Made by a program: the position numbers and the translations under genes. This document shows positions 22,566 to 51,485 of a stretch of DNA of 64,000 nt, one piece after another (within the stretch, counting starts at the first letter, position 1; each line of letters opens with the position of its first letter). This DNA comes from a virus. Where the stretch lies: IMG/VR virus record IMGVR_UViG_3300020420_000012, positions 17,636 to 81,635 of that record. One strand, written 5' to 3'. The notes below the pieces were generated by a model. It was given only the letters and a program-made list of their open reading frames with translations. It was not told the origin of the DNA and made no database searches.

Positions 22566-22967
22566 TTAACCTGTTAAATGTTTTGCATGAATTCTACAAC
22601 CTATAAAGTTGTTGTAGTAATCATCTCTAAACAATACATTGTGATCAAACTGAAGCTTTGCTTCATAGTAAGACATTTCGCCTTTTGTTTTACAGAGTTT
22701 TAATATTTCACGCTTAAATCTTTCTTTTCCATGTTGTTCCACGAGTTGGCGTACTTCATTTGATGATCCATAATAATCTTTCCAGTCTGATTCAACACGC
22801 GTTCGTACACGTCTCTTACGTGTCTTATTGACGGGAAGAACTTTAGGTTTCCAGAAGTTCTTCTTTCCAATATACTTTTTGTTGTTATGAATTTCTGTGA
22901 GTTGATATACAAACCCTTGATAGTCTTCTGGTGTTACTTCAAATAATTCATTATTATAATACCACAT
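22566..22967 (-). CDS. GIY-YIG family nuclease-like protein
   Basis: GFVYQLT...KKYIGKK...YYGSS...YYEAKLQF...YYN. Confidence 0.75.
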   Translation of the reverse strand: MWYYNNELFEVTPEDYQGFVYQLTEIHNNKKYIGKKNFWKPKVLPVNKTRKRRVRTRVESDWKDYYGSSNEVRQLVEQHGKERFKREILKLCKTKGEMSYYEAKLQFDHNVLFRDDYYNNFIGCRIHAKHLTG

Positions 22968-22975
22968 AAAGTTAT

Positions 22976-24229
22976 TTATTCTTTTTTATAGACAGCACCT
23001 CGTAATGCCAATGGGCTTGTCGCTTGTAATATTGGTGTATTGATACCAACAGGCAAAGGTTTTGTTGGCTCAAATTTTGGCAACAGTGGTAATAATATTA
23101 GAAAATGAAAGAAGTAATATCCTGTTGCTAATCTACTTAACGTAACATATATTCCTTCAGCTGGCATTGCACCGAGATATCCAAGTGCTATACAGTCAAT
23201 AAACAATATCCAAAAGAATATTTTATATAAAGGTCTAAAATTTGAACTACGTATAGGCTGTCTGTCAAGCCAAGGTAAAATAAAAAGTACTACTATTGCA
23301 CCAAACATTAATAGTACACCGCCTAATTTATCAGGTACCGCACGCAGTATAGCATAAAAAGGTAAAAAGTACCATTCAGGTACAATGTGTGCGGGTGTAA
23401 CCATTGGATTTGCTGGTATGTAATTATCAGGATGACCCATAAAATTAGGAAAGAAAAACACTGCTGCTGCGAAAAATGTTAAGAATATACCTAGTCCAAA
23501 TAAATCTTTTATAGTATAATATGGGTGAAACGGTATAGTGTCTTGTTTTCCTTTAACATCAATACCTATAGGATTATTAGAACCAAATCTGTGTAATGCT
23601 ACTAAGTGTAATATTACAGTGCCAACTATTACGAAAGGTAACACAAAGTGTAAACTAAAAAATCTATTTAACAATGCGTTATCAACACTAAATCCTCCCC
23701 ATAGCCATGTAACGAATTGTTCACCTACCAGTGGTATTGCACTAAACAAGTTTGTTATTACTGTAGCACCCCAAAAACTCATTTGACCCCACGGCAGTAC
23801 ATAACCCATAAATGCAGTTGCCATCATTAATAGTAATATAAAAACGCCAAGAATCCAAAGAAGTTCACGCGGTGCTTTATATGAACCATAATACAGTCCA
23901 CGAAATATATGTATGTACGTAACTATAAAGAAGAAGCTAGCACCATTCATATGAATGTATCTTATTAACCAACCGTGATTTACATCTCTCATTATTCTTT
24001 CAACTGAATCAAACGCATAGTCTACATGAGCAGTATAATGCATACTTAATACTATACCAGTTACAATCATAATTACAAGGGATATGCCTGCTAAAGAACC
24101 AAAGTTCCAAAAATAATTTAAATTTTTTGGTGTAGGATATTCGTTAAGTTCGTGATTCATAAACGTAAATATGCCAAGCCTATGATCTATCCAATTAACT
24201 ACAGGATTTTTAAATTTAGTTTTTGCCAT
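22976..24229 (-). CDS. petB: Cytochrome b of the cytochrome bc1 complex (auxiliary metabolic gene)
   Basis: [20 protein letters not shown]...[37 protein letters not shown]...ILHL and PEWY are all intact; 417 aa, unsplit. Confidence 0.97.
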
Positions 24230-24420
24230 TAAAAGTCTACGTCTATTCCATTTATACTATAAGTCTTACCGTTGAAACCTTTATCCATCTTTTCTTTATC
24301 AGTCATGTTGTCACTGTTAATTCTTTTCCAAGGATTGAACTTCTTCTGCTTCTGCTCTCCTACCACAGATCGGGCAAAAAACAGGTTTTTGATATGATGC
24401 CACATAAGAAGTTTCATCAC
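24229..24420 (-). CDS. Hypothetical protein
   Basis: Overlaps both neighbours at start/stop codons within the nrdJ-cytb operon. Confidence 0.5.
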
Positions 24421-24632
24421 ATTCTTCGCAATCTATCTGGTAATCTTTCAAGAATTTTCTTCTTTCTTTTTAAACTTGCTGTTGACCATTCCGCTATCTC
24501 TTGTGTCGATCTGCCACAGCCAATACAAAAATTGTCTTGTAGAGTGCAAATCTTTATACAAGGTGAAACGACTTTAGAAATCGATTTCACAGGCGCCACC
24601 TGCGCAGGCGGCTGCAGCGAGTGTATCAACAT
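24417..24632 (-). CDS. DUF1289-like Cys-rich (putative Fe-S) protein; start uncertain
   Basis: SPCIKICTL...CIGCGRS..EIAEW motif. Confidence 0.7.
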   Translation of the reverse strand: MLIHSLQPPAQVAPVKSISKVVSPCIKICTLQDNFCIGCGRSTQEIAEWSTASLKRKKKILERLPDRLRRM

Positions 24633-26787
24633 CGGTATACTTTCTTTCTTTAATATCTTCTTTCCAATCTACTGTCATAAGTGTCGATTGTATCTTATTC
24701 CACTTATGAAGTAGATACGCATCCTTTAAACAATGCTCAGCTAATGTTGTATCTGATTTTAAATAATTATCAGCAAACTTTCCAAACCTTCTTATCCAAT
24801 CTCTTTTAAGAGCATTTTCAGAAGTTTCTAGAGATATATCTTCACCAAACCCTTTTGCGGTTGAACACGCATCCCATAAGTTATTAAAACATTTTAAGGC
24901 GTCCACGACCATACCTGACGCAAATACTGCTGCATCACCATATTTCTTCACCATATCTTTTGAAGTAATGACTGCCGTGTTTGGAGCTTGATTATAATCT
25001 TTATCACCACTCATAGATAAAAATGAAATACCAGCAAAAGAATCTCTGTTTTCAAAAACATATCTTTCAACATCATCCCAATTATCAACTATTATAGTAT
25101 TTGAAACATTATGCCTAACGCCACTGTCTGCGCATAAATCTTCATTTGTGCCAGCTTCAACCCAATGTTTTTGAGCTTTCTTTACAAGTTCCAAATGTTT
25201 TATACCTAGTAAGTCATCTTTATACAAAGAACCTTTTTTTGGTAGTATAGGAAAAGAAACAACAACATCAGTGCCACCAGCAGACCATACTGAATCTTCT
25301 ACCATATAAGGATTGGTCTTCATAATAGCTTGAGTTATTTCTGATTCTTTATTCATTTGTACGTTTCTTATATACATGTCAGAATGCTCAGCATGAATGC
25401 CAGATGCAGTTTGTAATAATACAGAAGCATTACCACTTGGCTTTACACACGTAGTTCTTGCTGCAGGATTGATTTTAATAATCATGGCAACTTCTCTATT
25501 TACTTCTTTAACTATCTTTGCGCCTTTTTCTAATATTTTTTCGTTAAATAAAATATCAGGATTATTCATCCATCCAGTAATTGAAACTCCAAGTAACGCT
25601 TCTCTATCAAAGATAAGTTTTGATGTGTCAGTTAAAAACTTAAAGTCAGTGTACCCTGCTTGTAGGGTACCGAGGATAGACGCTGCTCGACATGCCTTAT
25701 AAAAGTCTTCCTCGGTATTGCATTTGCCTCCGTTGATTTCAGTCAGGTTACAGCCTTGCCAACCTGACTTTTTATTAATCTGAGGATACATACCAATCTC
25801 AACACATGGATTAGTTGTATGCTCTTTTGATTCAACAAAGACGAATCCGGGTTCGCCAAATTGTTTGACAGATTCCATAATCTTGCCAAACTCTTCAGGT
25901 GTAGTCTTGTCTCTAACAATAACTGCAGAGTTGTTTGACCTACCTCTTTGCGGATTTTCCATAAACCAATTCCCAGTTTTTGCGTTCAACATCTGTTCGT
26001 CATCTGGTGAGAATAAACATATTGTTGCAGATCTTCTTACACCACCGGATAATACAGCATCTGCTGCATGCATAGTGATATCATATGCATCAATAGGTTT
26101 GATTTCTATTGGTTCTTTGGAATCTAATACAATACCTTGTAATAAATGTTCTATCTTGTCTAAGGACCTACGTAAACCGTTCGGTCCTGGTGCTTTAAAT
26201 CCACCTGATATATAAGCACCCTTTGGTCTTATTTGTGATAAATCGAAATAAACTCTTCTTCCTTCGTATTCTGGATATTTACCTCCTCCAACAAAAAAAG
26301 AAGACATTAATATGTCTAATGCTGAAGCCCAACCTTCAATTGAATCTTCAACTATGTAACCTTTCGCTTGCTTTGTTCTATTTTGAATTTTTGGTAATTT
26401 TTTAATATGATGCTTTTGGACAGAGAAACCTGCACCAGCACCGCATAATAAAATATAAAACACTTCTCCAAAGAATGCTGGTCTGTCGACATAAGAAGAC
26501 GTACAGTTATACATTCTCATTTGATGTTTCATTAATTGCTCGCCGCCAAACTGTAGAGCGCGTTGCGCACCAAGAACTCTTTGTTCTTTATAAGCTGTAC
26601 GCGCCTCATCTAAGTAAGTAGCTAATTCATTATTATAGTTAATATAATTTTCGTCGTGCATGTTTATAACACGATCGACAGCCTCATCCCAAGTTTCATA
26701 TCTACCATCATCATCTTTAAATCTAGAATATCCTTCATAAAACTTAGTTTGAGACAAAAAATCTCTTGTGTCAACTTGTTGTTGCAT
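24574..26787 (-). CDS. nrdJ: Class II (B12-dependent) ribonucleotide reductase, monomeric RTPR type
   Basis: ETWDEAVDR, YNCT, GGVRRSA, NPCVEI (catalytic), CNLTEIN, TCVKPSGNAS, C-terminal CAGGACEI; no small-subunit gene adjacent. Confidence 0.9.
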   Translation of the reverse strand: MQQQVDTRDFLSQTKFYEGYSRFKDDDGRYETWDEAVDRVINMHDENYINYNNELATYLDEARTAYKEQRVLGAQRALQFGGEQLMKHQMRMYNCTSSYVDRPAFFGEVFYILLCGAGAGFSVQKHHIKKLPKIQNRTKQAKGYIVEDSIEGWASALDILMSSFFVGGGKYPEYEGRRVYFDLSQIRPKGAYISGGFKAPGPNGLRRSLDKIEHLLQGIVLDSKEPIEIKPIDAYDITMHAADAVLSGGVRRSATICLFSPDDEQMLNAKTGNWFMENPQRGRSNNSAVIVRDKTTPEEFGKIMESVKQFGEPGFVFVESKEHTTNPCVEIGMYPQINKKSGWQGCNLTEINGGKCNTEEDFYKACRAASILGTLQAGYTDFKFLTDTSKLIFDREALLGVSITGWMNNPDILFNEKILEKGAKIVKEVNREVAMIIKINPAARTTCVKPSGNASVLLQTASGIHAEHSDMYIRNVQMNKESEITQAIMKTNPYMVEDSVWSAGGTDVVVSFPILPKKGSLYKDDLLGIKHLELVKKAQKHWVEAGTNEDLCADSGVRHNVSNTIIVDNWDDVERYVFENRDSFAGISFLSMSGDKDYNQAPNTAVITSKDMVKKYGDAAVFASGMVVDALKCFNNLWDACSTAKGFGEDISLETSENALKRDWIRRFGKFADNYLKSDTTLAEHCLKDAYLLHKWNKIQSTLMTVDWKEDIKERKYTDVDTLAAAACAGGACEIDF

Positions 26788-26821: not shown

Positions 26822-26850
26822 ATTATATATTAAAAACAGGTTTTTGTAAA
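26822..26850 (-). promoter_or_regulatory. Phage early promoter driving the nrdJ-cytb operon
   Basis: TTTACA-N17-TATAAT. Confidence 0.65.
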
Positions 26851-41872: not shown

Positions 41873-42039
41873 ATAGGGGTTGATTTCACACCGTCAGTGT
41901 AGTCACCGCCGATGTATCTTCGTGTGACAGTTTCTTCTACAAGCATACCGTCACGAATTCTTAAAGTTACGAGTTTCCTAGACAGTATTCCATCACTGTC
42001 TAGGAGATCGAAAGCTTCCTTGAGAGGACCTTCGGTCAT
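41848..42039 (-). CDS. Hypothetical protein
   Basis: Coupled to the DUF932-like gene. Confidence 0.5.
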   Translation of the reverse strand: MTEGPLKEAFDLLDSDGILSRKLVTLRIRDGMLVEETVTRRYIGGDYTDGVKSTPICKVEGEK

Positions 42040-42995
42040 TACGCGACCTCTGCAAATTCTAATGCAGTCTTAAGTGCGTCTCTCTTTCTAACTTGATTAC
42101 CGCCGAACCAAGAAGAGTATAACCTGTTATCAGCGTTTCTACCTTGTACATGATCGGTAACGTAAGTTACAGAGTTAAAAGCCTGCCACCAAGAACCCTC
42201 GGCATACCTTGCACCAGGCTGAAGCTCGATAGCATCAAATGCAGCCTTTGCATTCTTTGAAAGAGTCTCTACAGATAACTCTTGATTTTGAACACGCTTG
42301 TCTGCGGTTCTTGGAAAGACTGTATTATAATACTCGATAAGATTATCGATATTGTATCTCTTAGAACCAAGGAACTCAGCCATTTCTTTATACTGACTTA
42401 ACTTAGCAGAAGCGATACCAAGAGCCTTCTTAACTTCATCGGCATTAAACTCTGTTCTGTGACCGACTTTTACAGATCTTTCAGCTTTTGCCTCAAGAGA
42501 TAGTGATAAAGTATTGTTACATACGACTCTAATTGGAGTAAACCTTACGTCGATAGAGAAACCGTACTTATGCGGATTTGAAAAGAGTAAGTATGACTCG
42601 ACAGTGTCACCACCGAAAAGATCAAATGACTCTTTGACTTTTGCTAAAGCCCATACGAGCTGACCGCCTTTGAGCGAACCTGCTGTATGCATTTCCATGT
42701 CACCTTTCATGACATACTCGCTGAAGAAGTTGAATGCGTCTTCGTTTTGTACAGGATTCCAAACCTGACCGATGTTAGTAAGAACTTTATTATCAGAACT
42801 TCTGACTAATGCTTTCATTCCAGTAGGAACTCTTTTGTCACCTACCTGAACGTATGAATCAATCTGCTCGACTGTCCAGTCTAAGCCAGCTTTCTTCATC
42901 ATTTGTTGCGGAGTCAGATCGTTTGATACTGATACTCCAAGACCATGCCACGGTACTTCACCTGCGTAAGCCATTGTTTCAACGTTATGAGCCAT
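42039..42995 (-). CDS. DUF932/DUF945 family protein
   Basis: MAHNVETMAYAGEVPWHGLG...AGLDWTV...PVQNEDAF...TPIRVVCNNTL...WQAFNSVT. Confidence 0.85.
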   Translation of the reverse strand: MAHNVETMAYAGEVPWHGLGVSVSNDLTPQQMMKKAGLDWTVEQIDSYVQVGDKRVPTGMKALVRSSDNKVLTNIGQVWNPVQNEDAFNFFSEYVMKGDMEMHTAGSLKGGQLVWALAKVKESFDLFGGDTVESYLLFSNPHKYGFSIDVRFTPIRVVCNNTLSLSLEAKAERSVKVGHRTEFNADEVKKALGIASAKLSQYKEMAEFLGSKRYNIDNLIEYYNTVFPRTADKRVQNQELSVETLSKNAKAAFDAIELQPGARYAEGSWWQAFNSVTYVTDHVQGRNADNRLYSSWFGGNQVRKRDALKTALEFAEVA

Positions 42996-43083
42996 AATAT
43001 ACCTTCCTTTCTATGCTAAAATAATATAGGCTAAAAATAATTCTGCGAACAGAATAAACGAACAAATAAAATATAAAAGTGAT

Positions 43084-43362
43084 TTAAGCATTTTGCGCCT
43101 CCGCCTTTTGAGCGTCTCTTTCGTCCTGCTTACGAACGAAATCGTTGCCAACCACGCATTGCTTGGTTGTAAGGAAACCAGTCTTATCTAGAAAAGATAA
43201 GAGGTTAGAAGCAAACTCGCTCCAATGCTTGCGCTTTTGCAAACCATAAACAAGCTTCCTGTTGATAGGACACTTCATAAACCTATCCAACTTAGCGATT
43301 CTGCTTTGCGGAAACCTTCTGATTTTTTCCTGTCTGAGGAACATTGCTTGATCGATATTCAT
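43084..43362 (-). CDS. Hypothetical early protein
   Basis: GGGAG Shine-Dalgarno; early promoter upstream. Confidence 0.6.
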   Translation of the reverse strand: MNIDQAMFLRQEKIRRFPQSRIAKLDRFMKCPINRKLVYGLQKRKHWSEFASNLLSFLDKTGFLTTKQCVVGNDFVRKQDERDAQKAEAQNA

Positions 43363-43394
43363 AAATTAAACTCCCTTTTCAATCTTATAATAAT

Positions 43395-43423
43395 ATTATA
43401 CACTAGTTTCTCTCAAATGTAAA
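43395..43423 (-). promoter_or_regulatory. Phage early promoter
   Basis: TTTACA-N17-TATAAT. Confidence 0.75.
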
Positions 43424-43462
43424 GGAAAAAATGCACTTATTTGAAAAAATAAACATAACATG

Positions 43463-43624
43463 TTAACTAATGAATCCTTTAGTCGTGATTGACCAGAACT
43501 GAGTGACCCATGGCTCTCTGTGAAGCTTTCTTAGAGTCTTGTACATGGCTCGAGCCTCCTTTAGAGTGTCAAACTCGAAGATCTCCATAAGCTCGCCGTT
43601 CATAAAAGTTTTAATTTCGTACAT
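43463..43624 (-). CDS. Small early protein (53 aa)
   Basis: Hand translation MYEIKTFMNGELMEIFEFDTLKEARAMY...; GGGAG Shine-Dalgarno. Confidence 0.6.
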   Translation of the reverse strand: MYEIKTFMNGELMEIFEFDTLKEARAMYKTLRKLHREPWVTQFWSITTKGFIS

Positions 43625-43655
43625 AATATAACTCCCTTTTTAATTTTATAGTTAT

Positions 43656-43684
43656 ATTATACACTATTTTCTCTTAGATGTACA
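43656..43684 (-). promoter_or_regulatory. Phage early promoter
   Basis: TGTACA-N17-TATAAT. Confidence 0.75.
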
Positions 43685-44682
43685 CAGTTTTTTTCACTTT
43701 TTTTTAATCCATATTTAATAACTTCTAACTCTTCTTCTGAATAGCCATACATAATATCATCATTGTCTTCATCTCTCCATTCATCAGTGTCTTCACCCTT
43801 ATGTATTAACGGGTCTATTGAATATCTTAGTTTAGGAAAGAATTCCGGAACGAGATCATCAAAGAATTTTTTACACTCGTCTAACCTGCCCGGCAAAAGC
43901 ATATACTCGATGTTAAACTTTCCGTCAACTTTTTCTCTGTAAATTTCTTCTATCTTATCTATTATCTTGCCGTGATTTGTAAATTCTTGATGAATGCTTA
44001 AACGAATTCCTCCAGCGTTTATAAGCTCTCTTAGCTTCGAAGCGTTGGCGGTACCGTTCGTGTTAGTGTGTACCTTATAACCAAAGCTGTTAACGTGTCT
44101 TACCATCTTCATATATTCTGGATTGATGGTTGGTTCACCGCCAGTAAATCGAAATGAAAGATCCTTACCCTTTGTTTGACTCACAATGTTATCGAAGCCT
44201 ATCTTAAATCTTTCGAAAGAGAGATGTGGACTAAAATTATCATGAACGTAACTCGGGCAATACGAGCAATCATAGTTACATCTTTTAGACATTATCCAGT
44301 TGATTCTAACGTGATTTTCTTTACCTCCCAAGTAACCAACTAAAGTTTTGATTTTTTCGTCCTTCAGTATTTCAACATTTTTTGTCTTTTGAAGATACTT
44401 AAAGTCTTTTTTTCTTTTCGACTTTAAGATATAGTGATCGGCACCACAATGGCACTTACTAACCGGACATCGTATCGGCTTGTCCGGCAGCTTGAATTCA
44501 GTAAAGATGTTACCTAACTCACCACCGTTAGCACAAACGCTTCCAAAGACTCTTCCGTCTCGTCTGACCGATAAAAAATTAAAACCAACACCACAGTACC
44601 AGTTTTGAAAAGAGTTACAGTTAACCTTGATGTAACTTGATCTTGTCCTTCTCAGACCATCTTCGGTGTCTACCATTATCAT
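43657..44682 (-). CDS. Radical SAM protein with an N-terminal SPASM/Twitch-like domain
   Basis: CNYDCSYC, FTGGEPT and TNG core motifs; N-terminal C...DG.V..C...LGNI...C...CHC. Confidence 0.85.
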   Translation of the reverse strand: MIMVDTEDGLRRTRSSYIKVNCNSFQNWYCGVGFNFLSVRRDGRVFGSVCANGGELGNIFTEFKLPDKPIRCPVSKCHCGADHYILKSKRKKDFKYLQKTKNVEILKDEKIKTLVGYLGGKENHVRINWIMSKRCNYDCSYCPSYVHDNFSPHLSFERFKIGFDNIVSQTKGKDLSFRFTGGEPTINPEYMKMVRHVNSFGYKVHTNTNGTANASKLRELINAGGIRLSIHQEFTNHGKIIDKIEEIYREKVDGKFNIEYMLLPGRLDECKKFFDDLVPEFFPKLRYSIDPLIHKGEDTDEWRDEDNDDIMYGYSEEELEVIKYGLKKSEKNCVHLRENSV

Positions 44683-44694
44683 TGAGCATCTCTT

Positions 44695-45381
44695 TTAGGA
44701 TTTTTTTTCAGAAGGATTTTTTTCACCGGTGATAAAGTCACGATCCGCGTAGATATCGTAGTAGTACTCCTCAGTGTCTCCGAGCCTGTACTCATTACCG
44801 TTCTCGACCTGATAGTATTCCGTACTCACCTTGAAGTCCGGCATCTTTGGTTCCTTCGGAGTCAGACTGTTATCGTATACTCGCATCCTATTGTTGGGGT
44901 ACAGAGCGAACTGCCCGTTCTCCAACTCTAACAAGTTAAAAGACTTGTGCTCATCCGGCTGTTCCGCTGTAGAGTAATCAACCTCGTCCGAATGTATATG
45001 GTAGTTATCCAAGGTGGCAATGTATGAACCCTTTACACGTCCGTGATTCTTTGTCCATACCTCGTAATCCATAGATCCAATGAACTGTTTCTGTATGCAT
45101 GTAACACCATAGTCCATACAGTTCCAAAACTGCAAGTCAGGCAATGCCATATCAACGTCCGGAGTCTCAGGAGAGGATACAAACGCGGATATCGGTAACT
45201 TATCGAACAAGGCACCGTACTCAGGTAGGAACGTTTCAAAATAGAAGGCGCGACCGGGGATAGACTTTGCTGTAACCCAGTGACCCTCGACGAACTCACC
45301 GTGTCCATCCTCGAGATCTCTGAGGTACTCACGGCGAACCCAAACTTTCTGATTGGGTATATTACAAATTAAATGCGACAT
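44695..45381 (-). CDS. Hypothetical phage protein
   Basis: VWVRREYL...SIPGRAFYFE...DKLPISAF...WNC...QPDEHKS...YPNNR. Confidence 0.7.
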   Translation of the reverse strand: MSHLICNIPNQKVWVRREYLRDLEDGHGEFVEGHWVTAKSIPGRAFYFETFLPEYGALFDKLPISAFVSSPETPDVDMALPDLQFWNCMDYGVTCIQKQFIGSMDYEVWTKNHGRVKGSYIATLDNYHIHSDEVDYSTAEQPDEHKSFNLLELENGQFALYPNNRMRVYDNSLTPKEPKMPDFKVSTEYYQVENGNEYRLGDTEEYYYDIYADRDFITGEKNPSEKKS

Positions 45382-45479
45382 AATACTATATATCTCTCGA
45401 AAAGGTTACGGGCCGAAATTTTTCCAGGAAAAAAAATTTTATAAAAGGTTTCTGTAAAAAAGTTCTGTGCTCTCTAATA

Positions 45480-45835
45480 CGCGAACCAAACTAGTGGCCT
45501 GTTACATGACTGTGCGATTCTGCCAATATAAACCCCTATACTGCTGACGTCACACAGATGATCACAGAGAGGTCCTTCGATATATGTGGTAGACTACATG
45601 CCTACCGTACTCGTTACGCCTCTCTGTGTGTATATGGGGGCCGTTGTCATGACATCCATCCTACCGACCTATCGGCCCCCTGGTAGGATGGGATACGTTT
45701 TATACTCCGACTCTGGTTCCCTGGGTAGTACCACACCTGTAAACCCCGATGACCTTCTGCTTCTGATATCTCACAACTTCTCCATCAGCCACCCTGTCGG
45801 TTACTATCGCTATGTCATTATATAGTACTCCCTTT
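45480..45835 (-). ncRNA. Candidate structured non-coding RNA
   Basis: Lies downstream of an early promoter, has no long ORF on that strand, is GC-rich and contains perfect 8-10 bp helices including a pseudoknot. Confidence 0.4.
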
Positions 45836-45851
45836 TTTTCTTTATATACTT

Positions 45852-45880
45852 ATTATACCACGGTTTCACAGCAATGTACA
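45852..45880 (-). promoter_or_regulatory. Phage early promoter
   Basis: TGTACA-N17-TATAAT with TGG extension and an A-tract. Confidence 0.75.
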
Positions 45881-46036
45881 CCTTTTTTTTCATTATTTGT
45901 GAACTTTTTTTTGGTATGAGAAAAAAATCTGCGGTCTGCTGCGGTCACTAAGGTATGCGACTGTGTGTACGTTTTGATTAGTTTTGAGATATCGCATGCA
46001 GAATGTGCACGATGTAAGTATCGCATATATAGTATT

Positions 46037-46165
46037 ATGAAGAGATTTATAAGAGATTTCCTATACTATTATAGGATGTTTGGACCACGCTATGGTTGGT
46101 TCTGGTCCATAGAATACAGTCGTTTTAACGCGATATACTTTAATAGAGACGGTACATGGAGGTAG
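46037..46165 (+). CDS. Small aromatic-rich protein (42 aa)
   Basis: MKRFIRDFLYYYRMFGPRYGWFWS...; start moved to ATG 46037. Confidence 0.4.
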   Translation: MKRFIRDFLYYYRMFGPRYGWFWSIEYSRFNAIYFNRDGTWR

Positions 46166-46338
46166 AGATGAACTCGACAGACTTTATTATCGTCCTTCTG
46201 ACCGCTGCCATGATCTATATAGGGTTTACTTTAATATGGATAGGTATGTATTGGGGTCTGCTTGTGATATTGTTTAACGTAAAAGTGTTTGATGTCTATT
46301 GTTTAAAGAGAAAGAATGATAATGATACAGCACGTTGA
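46156..46338 (+). CDS. Small membrane protein
   Basis: Two hydrophobic segments. Confidence 0.45.
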   Translation: MEVEMNSTDFIIVLLTAAMIYIGFTLIWIGMYWGLLVILFNVKVFDVYCLKRKNDNDTAR

Positions 46339-46837
46339 CTATGAGATCGATAAGAAGAAGTATCGAGACATCTTTTATGAGAACGTTAACAAGTACGGGC
46401 AGTGGCACTGGCTTTGTCCGAAGCGGCAGGAGTTGTTTTGGTATCAGATGTTTGTGAAAGATGATCATCCGCTCAAGCCGATGATACGTGAGGTTGAGCA
46501 CGATCTTAATATTGCATATATGAACAACTATCCGAGATTCAGTTACCAGTTTCCGAACACGAAGCTTGGACACCATCGCGACGAAGACGATATCGTATCG
46601 ATCAATATCAATCTCTTTGAGACGATTCCGATCATACACGTCGAGAATCATCCGTATCCGTACGAGTGTGCCTTGATCGACGTTGGTTCCTTGATGCACG
46701 GTGTCGAGCCTGACGCTAACCACAGACTGATACTCAAGTTTTGTTTAAGACACCCTTACGAGGAGGTGTACGAGAGACTGGACAAGTTTGGTCTCTTGAC
46801 AGAGGACTGTATCTACAGGACGTCGACTCTGAAGTAA
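46316..46837 (+). CDS. Fe(II)/2OG-type (DSBH) oxygenase
   Basis: HRD...SININL...CALID...HGV...RLILKF. Confidence 0.65.
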   Translation: MIMIQHVDYEIDKKKYRDIFYENVNKYGQWHWLCPKRQELFWYQMFVKDDHPLKPMIREVEHDLNIAYMNNYPRFSYQFPNTKLGHHRDEDDIVSININLFETIPIIHVENHPYPYECALIDVGSLMHGVEPDANHRLILKFCLRHPYEEVYERLDKFGLLTEDCIYRTSTLK

Positions 46838-47295
46838 CTCTGCAGCCTCTTTCTTACGACTTCGTAAGGCGTATCCAGATAAGAGAACTTCAGTAAGAGT
46901 CTCTCTTTGTGGTAAGCAGGCACGGCATGATCGAGAGAGGTGTTAAAGAGCGCGCAATCGTAGCGTATCTCACCATAGTCTTTAAACACGACCGGTGCGT
47001 AGTCGTCTGACAGCACGATATTCACAGAACATTCTGTCGCAGGATCGACGTGCATGTGTACGCTTGTGTTCGCTAATTGTTTATAGGCTACTATGATACT
47101 ACCGGGTAACTGCATGTGTAGGTCCTCGATGTGAGGAAACATAACAATATTTTCTCTCAGTCTCGCCTTGAGCCAAGTGTTACGAAAGTAACATTCCTTC
47201 GGTGAGAACGGTTTAAAGTCAAGCTCACTTACTTCTTCTTTAAGTTTCTCTTTATCGTACTGTAAGTTTAAATGTGTTACGTATAGTTCCTGCAT
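46813..47295 (-). CDS. Fe(II)/2OG-type (DSBH) oxygenase
   Basis: HVD...CSVNIVL...CALFN...HAV...ERLLLKF. Confidence 0.65.
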   Translation of the reverse strand: MQELYVTHLNLQYDKEKLKEEVSELDFKPFSPKECYFRNTWLKARLRENIVMFPHIEDLHMQLPGSIIVAYKQLANTSVHMHVDPATECSVNIVLSDDYAPVVFKDYGEIRYDCALFNTSLDHAVPAYHKERLLLKFSYLDTPYEVVRKRLQSYFRVDVL

Positions 47296-47711
47296 CTAAA
47301 AAAGTCCACTATGTAAAAATAATTTCTGTTGAGGTATCGATACACATCGCTTTTTCGATAGAATCCTATCTGATCTAAATCGATAATCTTTAGTTGCCTG
47401 TCTGGTGTCACGATCAGGTTGAGTGAATGTATGTCTTCGGCAAATAAAAATAAATCTTTGTCCTTGATACGAGTCAAGGTGTTCATAAAGTCCATACATT
47501 TCGACAACACCCACATCATATCTTCTACAGATTTCATATCAGTTTCTTTTAATGTTGTTCCTTGTACGTACTCATAAATTATTTTTTTATCGTCATACTC
47601 AATTATGTTTGGAACCATCGAATGATTTAACTCAATCAGATTATCGATTGGTGTCTTGTGCTCTGTTGGACGAGCCGACCTGTTATCCTTAAATATTTTT
47701 TTATGTAACAT
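47277..47711 (-). CDS. Small kinase, APH/RIO/protein-kinase-like fold
   Basis: VPNIIEY...YEYVQG...DIHSLNLIV...IIDLD. Confidence 0.6.
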   Translation of the reverse strand: MLHKKIFKDNRSARPTEHKTPIDNLIELNHSMVPNIIEYDDKKIIYEYVQGTTLKETDMKSVEDMMWVLSKCMDFMNTLTRIKDKDLFLFAEDIHSLNLIVTPDRQLKIIDLDQIGFYRKSDVYRYLNRNYFYIVDFFRCRNYT

Positions 47712-48216
47712 TGATTATACTTGCAGGTAGTCTGTTATAGCATTCATCATAACTCTTATCAAAGATACTGAGTTTTAAGAGTAGTCTTTCTTCTGAATGT
47801 TTCTTTACGGCGTGTCTTTTACTTACGTTGATAAGCGCGCATTCATACTGAATGTCACCGATGTCTTCAAATGTTATTGGTCCAAAATTATCTGACAATA
47901 GTATGTTGATACAAGTTTGAGTACCGTTGTCGCTGTGCATAGGAACTTCGGTGTTTGCGTGTTGTTTCAAGTATCTTGGATCAATCTTAACGTCAAACAA
48001 ACTCTCAAAGTATCGTGTTAATTTTGCTATGTCGCCAAAAGGTTTCTTCATGTGACCAAACTCCCATGATGGAAAGTTTTCAAATGGTGTACCTTTTGCT
48101 TTTTTACTCTTAATCTTAAGAGGTTTAAAATCAATGAGTTCTGATTCTAGAATCAGTTTGTCAACGTCATAATTAATTTTTAAGTGTGTCAGGTAATCTT
48201 TCGATACATTCTTCAT
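47701..48216 (-). CDS. Fe(II)/2OG-type (DSBH) oxygenase
   Basis: HSD...CINILL...CALIN...HAV...ERLLLKL. Confidence 0.65.
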   Translation of the reverse strand: MKNVSKDYLTHLKINYDVDKLILESELIDFKPLKIKSKKAKGTPFENFPSWEFGHMKKPFGDIAKLTRYFESLFDVKIDPRYLKQHANTEVPMHSDNGTQTCINILLSDNFGPITFEDIGDIQYECALINVSKRHAVKKHSEERLLLKLSIFDKSYDECYNRLPASIINVT

Positions 48217-48667
48217 ATGTCTTATCCAAAATACTAAGATTAAATAACCATCTCTCTGTCTTACTCGATTTAACCTTATGTTTCTTTTTTATGTTAAGTA
48301 GTGCACAATCATAATACACGTCACCAATATCTTCAAACGTTATTGGTGAATTATTGTCTGATAATAGAATGTTAATAGAACACATTGGTCTTCCATCGGT
48401 ATGAAACGGTATTTCACAACCGGGCATCTGTTTAAAAAATTGTGTTCTAATTTTTGTTTCAAATAGGTTTTGAAAGTAAGTTGATATTCTATTAACTTCT
48501 TCGATATGATCTATGTCTCTGCAGATTTGCCAACCAGGTGCATGTATAAAAAAAGAATTCTGTGCTTTCTTTACATTATTAAGTTTAAAGTCTACGTAAT
48601 CTACCGTATCAAGATCTTTTATAAGTCTTTCTTTATCATATTTAAAATTAAGGTGAGTGAAATGCAT
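48173..48667 (-). CDS. Fe(II)/2OG-type (DSBH) oxygenase
   Basis: HTD...CSINILL...CALLN...HKV...ERWLFNL. Confidence 0.65.
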   Translation of the reverse strand: MHFTHLNFKYDKERLIKDLDTVDYVDFKLNNVKKAQNSFFIHAPGWQICRDIDHIEEVNRISTYFQNLFETKIRTQFFKQMPGCEIPFHTDGRPMCSINILLSDNNSPITFEDIGDVYYDCALLNIKKKHKVKSSKTERWLFNLSILDKTYEECIERLPDTLKN

Positions 48668-49403
48668 ATCTCATCAATCTTCTCTTAACGTGCGAGGGTG
48701 TGTGATCACGCTTGTGACTGACTGTCATATTATTCCAAATAACTAGATCTCCTACACTCCAATTATGAATGTAAATATTTTCTTCATCATCAAATATTTT
48801 GTTAAGATCTTCATAGTACTCAGTACCAGCGTATGCTGGACTAAAGAAAATGTACTCACCAAACTGATCATTTCGATAAATGCTTTGCTTAGATCTTGAC
48901 TTCATAAGAAACGCTCGCTTATAGACTTCTGACCTAAAGTCATGTGGATACTTGGATCTTTCAAAATAGTTTCGTACTGAAAATTCTACACTACCCTCAT
49001 CAATAACTTTTTGTTTAAGTTCATCATCTAATTTTTTCCATGCATTGATTGAATCACAAAAATAAGTAGGACTTGAACCTTCGTCTGCTTGCTTACAATA
49101 AAGTCCTACAAACGGATGGATCGAGTCAAGGTAAGCTCTGTCGTTATGCCACATCATGTCTTCTTCTTGCCAAACATGATCCTCTTTTTTATTATCAGTT
49201 CCTATCGGTACTTCTTTTTTTCCATACAAATCTTGCTCTTCAAGCTCACCAATATATCTAATCAACTCTTCATTTGCATTCTTAATTATTAAAACCTGTA
49301 TCTTTCCGTTGTAAAAGTCTCTTATCCATCTTTGATAAAGATGTGACTGTTCGGTTTTTATGAAGGTTTGTGGTATTTCTCTAAGCATAGTTCTCCGATC
49401 CAA
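48648..49403 (-). CDS. TauD/TfdA family dioxygenase
   Basis: WHND...LYC...TYFCD..AW..L...HNWSVGDLVIWNN...HKR...R.LMR. Confidence 0.85.
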   Translation of the reverse strand: MDRRTMLREIPQTFIKTEQSHLYQRWIRDFYNGKIQVLIIKNANEELIRYIGELEEQDLYGKKEVPIGTDNKKEDHVWQEEDMMWHNDRAYLDSIHPFVGLYCKQADEGSSPTYFCDSINAWKKLDDELKQKVIDEGSVEFSVRNYFERSKYPHDFRSEVYKRAFLMKSRSKQSIYRNDQFGEYIFFSPAYAGTEYYEDLNKIFDDEENIYIHNWSVGDLVIWNNMTVSHKRDHTPSHVKRRLMRYAFHSP

Positions 49404-50927: not shown

Positions 50928-51161
50928 CTATTTCTTTTCGCTTACATAAGCATAGAGTTCGTTAGCTCTCTTAACGATCTCTTCTGGCTTGTACATGTCA
51001 GGTACGTACTTATCATACGCTTCCTTAATATCTTTACCAGTTTCTTGATTTTCATCAATCATACGATGCATGAAATCCATCTGTAATTGAAATTGTTGGT
51101 CAGCCATCTCTTTGGCCATTCTTAAAGTTTCGAGTCTGATCTCGTATGGATTTTTAGACAT
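50928..51161 (-). CDS. Hypothetical phage protein
   Basis: MSKNPYEIRLETLRMAKEM...EEIVKRANELYAYV; GGAGGA Shine-Dalgarno. Confidence 0.65.
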   Translation of the reverse strand: MSKNPYEIRLETLRMAKEMADQQFQLQMDFMHRMIDENQETGKDIKEAYDKYVPDMYKPEEIVKRANELYAYVSEKK

Positions 51162-51184
51162 ATTGTCCTCCTGTGTGTTGTGTG

Positions 51185-51450
51185 TTGTGGAGAGATTCTG
51201 TTTCCACGCTCTCTCCGAGCGCATAGGAATTACGCTGCTTGAGCGAACTCCTGAGGTGCAAAATTATCGTTTGCATTTAGAGTTTTGTTCGCATTAACCG
51301 AGCTTACATCCGGATAACTCCACATCGCTATTGAACCTGTCGATCCTATTTCAGCCCCATCAAAACTACTCGATAATAGTGTTTTTGGTGGAGCTGCCGG
51401 GTACCGCCCCCGGGTCCAGCGAACCATTCGCTTTGCTTCATCGTTATATA
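51185..51450 (-). ncRNA. ssrA: Two-piece (circularly permuted) tmRNA
   Basis: Acceptor piece with T-arm CCGGG-GGCGGTA-CCCGG and CAGCTCCACCA ending at 51386; spacer; coding piece starting GGGGCTGAAATAGGATCGAC at 51358; G3-U70 alanine identity pair; tag ANDNFAPQEFAQAA* at 51274-51230. Outer boundaries approximate. Confidence 0.93.
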
Positions 51451-51456
51451 GTATAT

Positions 51457-51485
51457 ATTATACCATAAAAATTAACATTTGTACA
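51457..51485 (-). promoter_or_regulatory. Phage early promoter for tmRNA
   Basis: TGTACA-N17-TATAAT. Confidence 0.75.

What the first reader, a model, noticed from the sequence alone, without database searches (positions are those of the whole stretch)
22976..24229. Phage-encoded, intact respiratory cytochrome b without Rieske or c1 partners
Seen: a complete 417-aa cytochrome b with four haem-ligand His, the Qo-site PEWY and WGATV motifs. It is embedded with overlapping start/stop codons in a phage early operon (nrdJ, DUF1289-like, small ORF, cytb, then GIY-YIG), has phage-like AT content and has no petA/petC neighbours. Established: bacterial petABC is normally one operon, and cyanophages carry psbA to sustain host electron flow. 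Inference: a respiratory analogue, with the phage supplying the quinone-binding core of host complex III. Such a gene is rarely reported in phages, to my knowledge.
Basis: partly seen in the sequence, partly recalled or inferred. Interest (0 to 1): 0.85.

Follow-up and report, generated by a model that had tools for sequence, protein, structure and literature searches.

The report
Ocean phage carries respiratory cytochrome b
An uncultured T4-like ocean phage carries an intact, strongly conserved copy of cytochrome b, the quinone-binding core of respiratory complex III, taken from SAR116-type bacteria and lacking its two partner subunits, which looks like a respiratory counterpart of the photosynthesis genes that cyanophages carry.

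Summary
22976-24229 (-) encodes a 417-aa cytochrome b with both Pfam domains, four haem-ligand His, WGATV and PEWY. The contig is a T4-like myophage.

The gene is no chimera. 30 IMG/VR loci from 23 samples share its junctions.

It is a 1.37-kb accessory cassette, cytochrome b plus a 25-codon leader ORF. It sits between a Zn-ribbon ORF and segE in 12 of 56 related loci with room.

It nests inside SAR116-type cellular sequences, 84% identical to a SAG that has petABC. Selection is strongly purifying: median dN/dS 0.041.

No Rieske or c1 gene lies beside any of the 76 viral cytochrome b loci. They flank 74 of 75 cellular loci. IMG/VR-wide scans for them found only giant-virus bins.

A second, SAR11/Fonsibacter-related phage clade exists; one common origin is rejected.

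Function is inferred, not shown: most likely it supplies the catalytic core of the host bc1 complex during infection.

In print I found only a read-level listing from 2013. This scan noted the same kind of gene before on another genome (e1-5949037).

The parts
22976..24229 (-). Cytochrome b (petB-type), 417 aa, intact
   Evidence: ORF. Pfam PF00033 1.6e-77 and PF00032 1.9e-44. Solved cytochromes b at E 1e-152. His 93/107/194/208, WGATV 153, PEWY 284. It keeps 117 of 121 columns that are at least 97% conserved in 154 cellular sequences. Median dN/dS 0.041.
24229..24306 (-). Conserved 25-codon micro-ORF ([25 protein letters not shown]). Its stop overlaps the cytochrome b start (TAATG). It belongs to the cassette.
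   Evidence: Sequence. Present in 19 of 19 aligned cytochrome-b-bearing loci, with variation concentrated at third codon positions (0.039, 0.030, 0.240). It lies inside the stretch that cytochrome-b-less relatives lack. It does not resemble the C-terminus of cellular Rieske proteins.
22968..24338 (-). The inserted cassette: 1,371 nt, present here and missing from close relatives
   Evidence: blastn against cytochrome-b-less loci L267, L269 and L280. Homology runs 24800->24339 and resumes at 22967, with about 5 nt between the two parts in those loci. Weak single-contig joints in two DNA runs (22969->24363 and 22980->24362, sides of 23-26 letters) fit this but do not count alone.
24317..24451 (-). 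44-aa Zn-ribbon-like ORF (CEEC...CPxC). Backbone gene, not specific to the cassette.
   Evidence: Conserved in all 19 aligned loci, with a codon-position pattern that fits this frame and not the 63-aa frame listed by the ORF tool. Present in all 44 cytochrome-b-less relatives with room. Only sub-threshold Pfam hits.
24417..24632 (-). DUF1289 small Cys-rich protein (likely start GTG 24590). Backbone gene.
   Evidence: Pfam PF06945 6.5e-17. Sequence. Found in 42 of the 44 cytochrome-b-less relatives with room.
24574..26787 (-). B12-type ribonucleotide reductase (nrdJ-like), head of the gene string
   Evidence: Weak Pfam hits to three RNR domains, each about 1.5e-5. 468 related stretches in IMG/VR.
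22566..22967 (-). SegE-type GIY-YIG homing endonuclease, 8 nt downstream of cytochrome b
   Evidence: Pfam PF19835 4.9e-36. Conserved next to the insertion site in loci with and without cytochrome b.
26822..26850 (-). Best sigma-70-like promoter match of the region (TTTACA-17-TATAAT), just upstream of nrdJ
   Evidence: 11 of 12 matches. The count of such sites in the region is not above shuffles (31 against 25.4 +/- 5.3), so this is a hint only. No TATAAATA late-promoter motif between 14,660 and 32,071.

Best explanation
SHOWN. This is a host-derived auxiliary metabolic gene. A T4-like marine myophage carries a full-length cytochrome b captured from an AT-rich SAR116-type alphaproteobacterium. 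The gene, with a 25-codon leader ORF, is a 1.37-kb accessory cassette. It sits at an insertion hot spot between a Zn-ribbon ORF and a SegE homing endonuclease, downstream of the phage's ribonucleotide reductase. It has all haem-ligand and quinol-site motifs and is kept under strong purifying selection.

INFERRED. The gene is transcribed with the nucleotide-metabolism genes. It is translated by coupling to the leader ORF and inserted into the host membrane. There it joins the host's own Rieske protein and cytochrome c1, giving new or replacement bc1 complexes. This would keep quinol oxidation, proton-motive force and ATP supply going while the phage replicates. It would also keep the quinone pool oxidised for quinone-linked steps of nucleotide synthesis. 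On this reading it is a respiratory counterpart of cyanophage psbA.
For: Phage context: gp32; baseplate wedge, hub and tail-tube-cap PHROGs; gp6 relatives are marine and other T4-like myophages.

Not a chimera: 30 IMG/VR loci from 23 sample ids share at least one immediate window neighbour.

Origin:
- The window lies in a clade of 32 viral loci plus 12 database proteins (support 100) nested in SAR116-type sequences.
- The quick IQ-TREE joins the phage clade, plus four cell-signature database proteins of unknown context (the P0012 group), to L078 and L160 at SH-aLRT 98.
- L078 has petA-petB-petC.

Function kept:
- 117 of 121 near-invariant cellular columns are retained.
- Median dN/dS is 0.041 over 488 pairs, maximum 0.117, with amino-acid identity 89-95% although dS is near saturation.
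- All complete viral copies are open.

Orphan status:
- 0 of 66 viral loci with room upstream have petA, and 0 of 64 with room downstream have petC.
- Cellular controls: 74 of 75 and 74 of 75 in genomes, 60 of 62 and 66 of 69 in metagenomes, 25 of 25 in SAR11/SAR116 genomes.
- 0 of 5 whole viral records hold Rieske or c1.
- IMG/VR scans with petC and petA alignments gave 1 and 2 loci, all in giant-virus MAG bins. Cytochrome b gave 76.

Recurrence:
- A second phage clade is related to SAR11/Fonsibacter. One common phage clade is rejected (p-AU 6.6e-33).
- The SAR116-type gene also sits in an unrelated phage backbone: cytochrome b 91-93% identical, nrdJ 34%.

Electron-transport and nucleotide neighbours elsewhere:
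- A cupredoxin directly upstream in L030; L028 and L029 hold a protein of the same BLAST cluster there.
- nrdA-nrdB-cytb, and SufBD-cytb-dihydroorotate dehydrogenase.
Against: Nothing here shows expression, haem loading or assembly.

The RNA evidence is thin. One metatranscriptome holds two 151-nt contigs identical to the gene. Another holds contigs on nrdJ. DNA carry-over is not excluded.

From recalled knowledge of bacterial bc1:
- Cytochrome b alone cannot oxidise quinol at Qo.
- It is unstable without c1.
- No repair cycle that swaps cytochrome b into existing complexes is known.
- If the phage shuts off host transcription, Rieske and c1 supply would fall.

The gene is dispensable: 44 of 56 close relatives with room lack it.

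Two fixed phage-type changes hit positions that are 99% conserved in cells, P19G and T186L. T186 is also replaced by F in part of the second phage clade. This could mean altered rather than like-for-like function.

The record is only 39% complete by CheckV, so partner genes elsewhere in this genome are not excluded. The collection-wide scans make them unlikely.
Confidence: 0.55

Rival explanations
1. The phage cytochrome b works without Rieske protein and c1. It would be a stand-alone dihaem, quinone-binding membrane protein, for example a transmembrane electron conduit from the quinone pool to a periplasmic carrier, or a re-wired complex with other partners. It would change rather than sustain host electron flow.
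For: Phages carry cytochrome b alone in every viral locus examined. In a second phage backbone a cupredoxin gene sits directly upstream (L030; L028 and L029 by BLAST cluster and translation). Another lies about 3 kb away in a 131-kb record. Position T186 is changed in both phage clades although it is 99% conserved in 154 cellular sequences.
Against: The Qo-site motifs, which matter only together with the Rieske cluster, are kept: 117 of 121 near-invariant columns, PEWY and WGATV. The protein has the same length as the host's. The window's own record holds no cupredoxin. No stand-alone activity of a bc1-type cytochrome b is known to me (recalled).
Confidence: 0.17
2. The phage protein is a modulator or poison subunit. 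It displaces host cytochrome b or titrates Rieske and c1, and so throttles or short-circuits complex III. That could limit reactive oxygen, divert electrons to another oxidase, or time membrane de-energisation.
For: Fixed phage-type substitutions at otherwise near-invariant positions (G19, L186). Accessory distribution, which suggests a benefit that depends on conditions.
Against: Only 4 of 121 near-invariant columns differ, and none of them is a haem ligand or in WGATV or PEWY. dN/dS of 0.04 over the whole length fits a fully working enzyme better than a decoy, which needs only its interfaces. The branch leading to the phage clade is short (0.07 changes per column).
Confidence: 0.1
3. The gene has no use for the phage. 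It is a passenger carried along at a recombination hot spot beside a homing endonuclease, or a piece of cellular DNA joined to phage DNA by mis-assembly or mis-binning.
For: It lies at a variable slot next to segE, where other relatives carry nothing or a different 208-aa ORF. One deposited 'phage' hit did turn out to be host flank: the Helicobacter record ends in petB plus a cytochrome c/c1 gene.
Against: The same junctions occur in 30 loci from 23 samples. Synonymous sites are near saturation (median dS 1.64) while the proteins stay 89-95% identical and every complete copy is open. A useless passenger would have decayed over that divergence. The phage copies form their own clade with their own fixed residues.
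Confidence: 0.03

Closest known systems
Cyanophage psbA/psbD (photosystem II D1/D2) and the cyanophage electron-transport genes petE (plastocyanin), petF and PTOX
   Same: A host-derived gene for the quinone-binding core, or a carrier, of the host's main energy-converting electron-transport chain. It is carried singly by T4-like marine myophages, forms phage clades nested in host sequences, and is kept under purifying selection. A plastocyanin-family cupredoxin is even found next to cytochrome b in a related phage backbone. That these cyanophage genes exist and work this way is recalled knowledge, plus the review text listed, which I did not read.
   Different: The chain is respiratory, not photosynthetic. 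The hosts are heterotrophs of SAR116 and SAR11 type. D1 has a dedicated rapid repair cycle that explains why a single subunit helps; no such cycle is known for cytochrome b (recalled). The gene here is accessory (12 of 56 relatives with room). psbA is near-universal in cyanomyophages (recalled).
Cellular petB of alphaproteobacterial cytochrome bc1 (petABC/fbcFBC operon), nearest the SAR116 single-cell genome behind L078
   Same: 84% amino-acid identity and almost the same length (417 against 416 aa). Both Pfam domains, all haem ligands and Qo motifs. GC 0.337 against 0.345.
   Different: No petA before it and no petC after it. Phage genes flank it instead. A leader micro-ORF precedes it. Phage-type residues G19 and L186 replace P and T, each present in 99% of 154 cellular sequences.
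Read-level report of K00412 (CYTB, petB) in 'uncontaminated' viromes (Roux et al. 2013, PMC3877843)
   Same: Says that viruses may carry the complex III cytochrome b. [quoted passage not shown]
   Different: Reads only: no gene, genome context, host, phylogeny or selection analysis. Their supplementary table S5 was not opened.
Earlier finding of this scan on another genome (e1-5949037)
   Same: An intact stand-alone cytochrome b in an uncultured marine phage, said to come from SAR116-type bacteria and compared with psbA.
   Different: Different genome and backbone: it was called a jumbo phage, and only 40 of 180 short words are shared. Not independent evidence. Here the claims were tested afresh. 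Added here: the cassette boundaries, the presence/absence count, the second SAR11-type clade and the collection-wide absence of petA/petC.

Membership tests
Cytochrome b of bc1-type complexes (Pfam PF00033 + PF00032) | N-terminal four-helix haem-binding domain | tested here: met
   PF00033 E 1.6e-77, 260 bits against a cut-off of 27.2, profile positions 3-189 of 189.
Cytochrome b of bc1-type complexes (Pfam PF00033 + PF00032) | C-terminal domain fused in one chain (bc1 type, not split b6/subunit IV) | tested here: met
   PF00032 E 1.9e-44, profile 1-102 of 102, in the same 417-aa chain. Aligned over residues 21-385 to solved mitochondrial cytochrome b.
Cytochrome b of bc1-type complexes (Pfam PF00033 + PF00032) | Four His ligands for haems bL and bH | tested here: met
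   His 93, 107, 194 and 208 in the expected motifs. None of them is among the 16 columns where either phage clade departs from the cellular consensus. Which His binds which haem is recalled.
Cytochrome b of bc1-type complexes (Pfam PF00033 + PF00032) | Qo-site motifs PEWY and cd1-helix WGATV | tested here: met
   WGATV at 153 and PEWY at 284. The role of these motifs is recalled.
Cytochrome b of bc1-type complexes (Pfam PF00033 + PF00032) | Encoded with its Rieske and cytochrome c1 partners (petABC) | tested here: not met
   0 of 66 and 0 of 64 viral loci with room, against 74 of 75 and 74 of 75 cellular loci. No match in the whole record. This is a feature of the operon, not of the protein family.
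Cytochrome b of bc1-type complexes (Pfam PF00033 + PF00032) | Assembles into a quinol:cytochrome c reductase and is active | not testable with these tools
   Needs biochemistry. No complex prediction was run, because a pass would follow from likeness to solved structures.
Phage auxiliary metabolic gene | Lies inside a bona fide phage genome | tested here: met
   gp32. Baseplate wedge 1.1e-137, hub, tail-tube cap. gp6 relatives are T4-like myophages. IMG/VR record.
Phage auxiliary metabolic gene | Host-derived: phage copies form a clade nested among cellular homologues | tested here: met
   Phage clade support 100 (FastTree). Nested in SAR116-type sequences at SH-aLRT 98.
Phage auxiliary metabolic gene | Maintained by purifying selection in phages | tested here: met
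   Nei-Gojobori median dN/dS 0.041, maximum 0.117, 488 pairs. dS is near saturation, so the ratio is rough.
Phage auxiliary metabolic gene | Expressed during infection and of benefit to the phage | tested here: inconclusive
   Two exact 151-nt contigs in one RNA library, and contigs on nrdJ in another. DNA carry-over is not excluded. Benefit is not testable here.
T4-like myophage | T4-type baseplate, tail and replication core genes | tested here: met
   phrog_219 baseplate wedge, phrog_430 hub, phrog_230 tail-tube cap, phrog_350 tail protein. gp32 PF08804 3.9e-42.
T4-like myophage | gp23-type major capsid protein | tested here: inconclusive
   No PF07068 match in the 81.6-kb record. The record is a 39% fragment.
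Cassette at a homing-endonuclease-flanked hot spot | Presence/absence polymorphism at one exact site among close relatives | tested here: met
   12 with and 44 without among 56 loci with room. Boundaries 24338/22968. A different 208-aa ORF in the same slot in L287 and L282.
Cassette at a homing-endonuclease-flanked hot spot | Mobility driven by the endonuclease | not testable with these tools
   segE is present in loci with and without the cassette, so its own homing does not explain the polymorphism.

The most novel reading that the evidence does not exclude
Phage-borne cytochrome b is a phage-adapted version and not a plain spare part. Two independently acquired phage clades have replaced the same threonine (T186, 99% conserved in 154 cellular sequences). 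It became Leu in the SAR116-type clade. It became Phe, coupled to F190A one helix turn away, in part of the SAR11-type clade. The cellular Fonsibacter relative keeps T and F. The position lies eight residues before His 194, which by recalled numbering is a haem bL ligand. If so, phages would be tuning the chemistry or partnership of complex III. Possibilities are less superoxide, a different electron acceptor such as the cupredoxin encoded beside the gene in some phages, or resistance to a host or competitor inhibitor. That would make this a distinct viral class of respiratory enzyme core.
Probability: 0.15. Interest if true: 0.88.

Novelty: new variant of a known kind. Interest (0 to 1): 0.75.

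Why it matters
Auxiliary metabolic genes for energy conversion are textbook for cyanophages and photosynthesis. For phages of the ocean's dominant heterotrophs, no core subunit of the respiratory chain has been described at gene level in anything I could find.

Here the quinone-binding core of complex III is carried alone by many uncultured marine phages. It occurs in at least two independently acquired clades, tied to SAR116-type and SAR11-type bacteria, and is held under very strong selection.

[quoted passage not shown] That bears on carbon and oxygen budgets of infected cells.

It also raises a sharp biochemical question: how can a single bc1 subunit help, when no subunit-exchange cycle is known? 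A simple complementation experiment can address this.

The natural polymorphism, with otherwise near-identical phages carrying or lacking the cassette, offers a ready field test of when the gene pays.

Tried and rejected
- Chimera or mis-binning: rejected (see rivals).
- Composition as evidence of phage adaptation: rejected, because the nearest cellular gene is equally AT-rich.
- DUF1289 and the Zn-ribbon ORF as functional partners of cytochrome b: rejected. Of the 44 relatives without cytochrome b, all keep the Zn-ribbon ORF and 42 keep DUF1289.
- The micro-ORF as a remnant of the petA 3' end: rejected by eye against four cellular Rieske C-termini.
- L196V and S395G as phage-specific changes: dropped. 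V196 is shared with the nearest cellular sequences, and S395G is only partial.
- A198, W372 and Q122 as phage-specific in the second clade: dropped. Cellular Fonsibacter shares them.
- A second, stand-alone cytochrome b paralogue in hosts as the donor: not found. There was one match per genome in 5 of 5 SAR11/SAR116 genomes. In the sampled SAR11 order, 77 of 81 genomes gave one match, one gave two pieces of a single gene and 3 gave none.
- Host assignment through the phage tmRNA: only 35- and 33-nt core matches, in a SAR116 genome and in Fonsibacter. Too short to use.
- Read laying: at 88% likeness the conserved core of the gene recruits contigs of many organisms, so depth means nothing. No contig spans the whole stretch. 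The two joints that skip the cassette have sides of only 23-26 letters. RNA-library contigs do not prove transcription.
- Cluster look-up gave no organism names for the closest database proteins. The context of the P0012 group (87% identical, 919 members) stays unknown. Its residues at 19 and 186 are the cellular ones.
- The metagenome scan did not return that group itself.
- Literature: searches found no gene-level description. 'Cytochrome' occurs 0 times in the main texts of PMC7029224, PMC5628999 and PMC4360716 (passages only). I did not open supplementary tables, for example Table S5 of PMC7029224 and table S5 of PMC3877843. They, and AMG catalogues of large viromic surveys, may list the gene.
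- Not run: structure prediction, fold search, complex prediction, atlas search and the representative-protein search. Sequence identity to solved cytochromes b already settles the fold, and a predicted complex with host partners would pass by likeness.
Full report
WHAT IS THERE

The minus-strand ORF 22976-24229 encodes 417 aa. It matches both cytochrome b domains over their full profiles: PF00033 at 1.6e-77 and PF00032 at 1.9e-44. It aligns from residue 21 to 385 with solved mitochondrial cytochromes b at E 1.2e-152. His 93, 107, 194 and 208, WGATV (153) and PEWY (284) are present.

The window is phage DNA of the T4-like kind:
- gp32;
- baseplate wedge (1.1e-137), hub, tail-tube cap and tail protein;
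- gp6 relatives among deposited phages are Phage C48C1 (45%), the OM43 phage Melnitz (37%), Pelagibacter phages HTVC008M (36%) and Mosig, Caulobacter Cr30 and cyanophage S-PM2.

The window is part of an 81,635-base IMG/VR record that CheckV rates 39% complete.

LOCAL ANATOMY

All genes from nrdJ to segE lie head to tail on the minus strand. The order is nrdJ-like reductase (24574-26787), DUF1289 (24417-24632, probably starting at GTG 24590), a Zn-ribbon ORF, a micro-ORF, cytochrome b and segE (22566-22967).

An alignment of 19 loci shows that the '63-aa ORF' of the ORF list is not one gene. Between 24416 and 24320 the codon-position pattern fits the 44-aa Zn-ribbon frame (CEEC...CPxC). From 24316 to 24232 variation is almost all at third positions of the other frame (0.039, 0.030, 0.240). 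That frame encodes a conserved 25-residue peptide, and its TAA shares its last A with the cytochrome b ATG. The peptide does not resemble the C-terminus of cellular Rieske proteins.

The best promoter-like site of the region lies just before nrdJ (11 of 12), but such sites are not enriched over shuffles. The T4 late-promoter word is absent between 14.7 and 32 kb. Several of its ten copies sit directly before structural genes. Early or middle co-transcription with nrdJ is therefore plausible, not shown.

IT IS A CASSETTE

I fetched 80 IMG/VR loci through the nrdJ protein (83-96% identical). Of these, 56 have at least 1,900 nt downstream. Twelve of the 56 carry cytochrome b. In the other 44 the Zn-ribbon ORF is followed, directly or after another insert, by segE.

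Against three such relatives, homology runs from 24800 to 24339 and resumes at 22967, with about 5 nt between the two parts in those loci. So 22968-24338 (1,371 nt) is an insertion: cytochrome b, its micro-ORF and a changed tail of the Zn-ribbon ORF. L287 and L282 carry a different 208-aa ORF without a Pfam match in the same slot.

DUF1289 and the Zn-ribbon ORF are thus phage backbone, not partners of cytochrome b.

NOT AN ARTEFACT

A scan of IMG/VR with the protein gave 76 loci.
- Group A, 30 loci from 23 sample ids: 89-95% identical, sharing at least one immediate neighbour with the window.
- Group B, 8 loci: 91-93% identical in cytochrome b but in a different phage backbone, where the nrdJ match is only 34%.
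- Group C, 38 loci: 56-67% identical, in several other contexts.

Every copy that is complete on its contig is open. Marine metagenome runs of 13 studies hold parts of the stretch, five of them half of its words or more.

ORIGIN

Among one genome per species, the nearest cellular sequences are two SAR116 single-cell or MAG genomes (84% and 79%). Pelagibacteraceae reach 63-67%. L078, the 84% match, has a Rieske gene before and a cytochrome c1 gene after its cytochrome b.

In a FastTree of 265 rows, the window sits in a clade of 32 viral loci and 12 database proteins (support 100) nested among SAR116-type sequences. A quick IQ-TREE of 75 rows joins the phage clade, together with the P0012 group, to L078 and L160 at SH-aLRT 98. 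The P0012 group, about 87% identical, has the cellular residues at positions 19 and 186, but I could not see its genomic context.

Group C forms a separate, deep clade. Its nearest named relative is the cellular cytochrome b of Candidatus Fonsibacter (72%), and that gene lies in a normal petABC operon.

A tree that forces all phage copies into one clade is 321.7 log-likelihood units worse, p-AU 6.6e-33. The group was named after I had seen the tree. So there were at least two acquisitions, plus movement of the SAR116-type gene between unrelated phage backbones.

Phage nature of group C is supported for several contexts:
- gp23 on the 155-kb record of L036;
- PAAR and tail-fibre-like genes around nrdA-nrdB-cytb;
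- clamp loader and tail fibre in L045, and DnaB-like helicase and split polymerase PHROGs in L064.

ORPHAN STATUS, WITH CONTROLS

I ran tblastn with the L078 Rieske and c1 proteins.
- Viral loci: nothing in any of the 76. Of these, 66 have at least 700 nt upstream and 64 have at least 900 nt downstream.
- Genome loci with room: 74 of 75 and 74 of 75.
- Metagenome loci with room: 60 of 62 and 66 of 69. Two of the metagenome exceptions, L161 and L163, are 92-93% identical to the window, so they are phage-like.
- SAR11/SAR116 genome loci: 25 of 25.

Five whole viral records (44-172 kb) have no Rieske or c1 match.

IMG/VR-wide scans with the single proteins found no relative. Scans with alignments of 17 c1 and 16 Rieske proteins found 1 and 2 loci, all in giant-virus MAG bins.

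Among 50,697 deposited phage records, the only hit is a Helicobacter prophage record that ends in cytochrome b followed by a cytochrome c/c1 gene, which is host flank. No PHROG family matches.

IS IT WORKING?

121 columns are at least 97% conserved in 154 cellular sequences. The window's clade keeps 117 of them and the second clade keeps 107.

Pairwise Nei-Gojobori dN/dS within the window's clade has a median of 0.041 (488 pairs, maximum 0.117), with median dS 1.64. Synonymous sites are near saturation, so the ratio is rough. The contrast with 89-95% protein identity is still plain.

Fixed phage-type differences from the cellular consensus are P19G and T186L. T186 is also replaced by F, together with F190A, in part of the second clade. 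The cellular Fonsibacter relative keeps T and F. I cannot assign a role to this position with the tools at hand.

HOW IT MOST LIKELY WORKS

Shown: a host-derived, intact, selected and recurrent cytochrome b that phages carry alone.

Inferred: because the Qo-site features that only make sense with a Rieske cluster are kept, the protein most likely joins host Rieske and c1 to make or renew bc1 complexes. That would sustain proton-motive force and quinol re-oxidation during replication.

Its place next to ribonucleotide reductase fits a link to nucleotide supply. So do the class I reductase and the dihydroorotate dehydrogenase beside it in other phages. Such regions are also where T4-like phages collect accessory genes (recalled).

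Weak points:
- no subunit-exchange cycle is known for cytochrome b;
- partner supply after host shut-off is unclear;
- the cassette is dispensable;
- RNA evidence is minimal.

The rivals are a partner-independent role, perhaps with the cupredoxin found beside the gene in group B; a modulating subunit; or a useless passenger. The last is contradicted by the selection data.

WHAT IS KNOWN

The closest concept is the cyanophage photosynthesis gene set (psbA, psbD, petE and others).

[quoted passage not shown] Six other searches found nothing at gene level. Three papers on marine myophages do not contain the word cytochrome in their main text. Supplements were not opened.

This scan noted the same kind of gene before on another genome (e1-5949037). 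I treat that as a lead. The claims it shares with this report were tested here on this genome.

VERDICT

- The finding is a new variant of a known kind: an auxiliary metabolic gene, here for the core of respiratory complex III in phages of marine heterotrophs.
- Interest 0.75.

Noticed in passing
window 51139-51482 (-): ARAGORN calls a permuted (two-piece) tmRNA with tag ANDNFAPQEFAQAA in the phage. Only 33-35-nt core matches to SAR116 and Fonsibacter genomes.
   Followed up: partly
L030 7529-7996; also L028 and L029; L265 (131-kb record of L026): A plastocyanin/azurin-family cupredoxin (PF00127, 1.8e-16) lies directly upstream of the SAR116-type cytochrome b in L030, a second phage backbone. 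L028 and L029 hold a protein of the same BLAST cluster there. Another lies about 3 kb from it in a 131-kb record. 2 of 5 records searched have one; the window's record has none.
   Followed up: partly
L057 4380-10760; L064 6517-10627; L045 7483-7929: Contexts of the second phage clade of cytochrome b: class I reductase nrdA-nrdB, then cytochrome b, then a PAAR protein; SufBD, then cytochrome b, then dihydroorotate dehydrogenase; a Cpn10 co-chaperonin before cytochrome b.
   Followed up: partly
L245, L246 (two genomes of the SAR11 order sample): The cellular petB of Candidatus Fonsibacter sits in a normal petABC operon. It groups with the second phage clade and is only 57-64% identical to the cytochrome b of the other SAR11-order genomes that matched. 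Only 2 of 81 sampled genomes have this type. Either the phages took the gene from that subclade or the transfer went the other way.
   Followed up: partly
L287 7470-8096; L282: The slot between the Zn-ribbon ORF and segE holds a different 208-aa ORF without a Pfam match in some relatives. L331-L334 have yet another spacing, so the site is a hot spot for cassettes.
   Followed up: partly
L120 and L207: Two non-viral loci have cytochrome b but no Rieske or c1 match within 4 kb, despite room. One is a MAG contig labelled Candidatus Pelagibacter; the other is a metagenome contig. Not examined. They could be further phage copies binned with cells, or split operons.
   Followed up: no
L076; L345-L347: Giant-virus MAG bins in IMG/VR hold cytochrome b pieces (GC 0.26) and, in other bins, Rieske and c1 genes about 50% identical to alphaproteobacterial ones. 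These may be organelle or bacterial contigs in the bins. Not examined.
   Followed up: no
L344 (PQ159902.1, Helicobacter phage Pt11470_1, record end): This deposited 'complete phage genome' ends in cytochrome b plus a cytochrome c/c1 gene, both annotated as hypothetical. This is probably host flank of a prophage.
   Followed up: yes
window 42039-49403: Further accessory genes in the window: DUF932 (42039-42995), a radical SAM protein (43657-44682) and a TauD-family dioxygenase (48648-49403).
   Followed up: no
records behind L026, L036, L045: CheckV rates contigs of 131, 155 and 172 kb as only 38-47% complete. That implies genomes of about 350 kb for some cytochrome-b-carrying phages.
   Followed up: no
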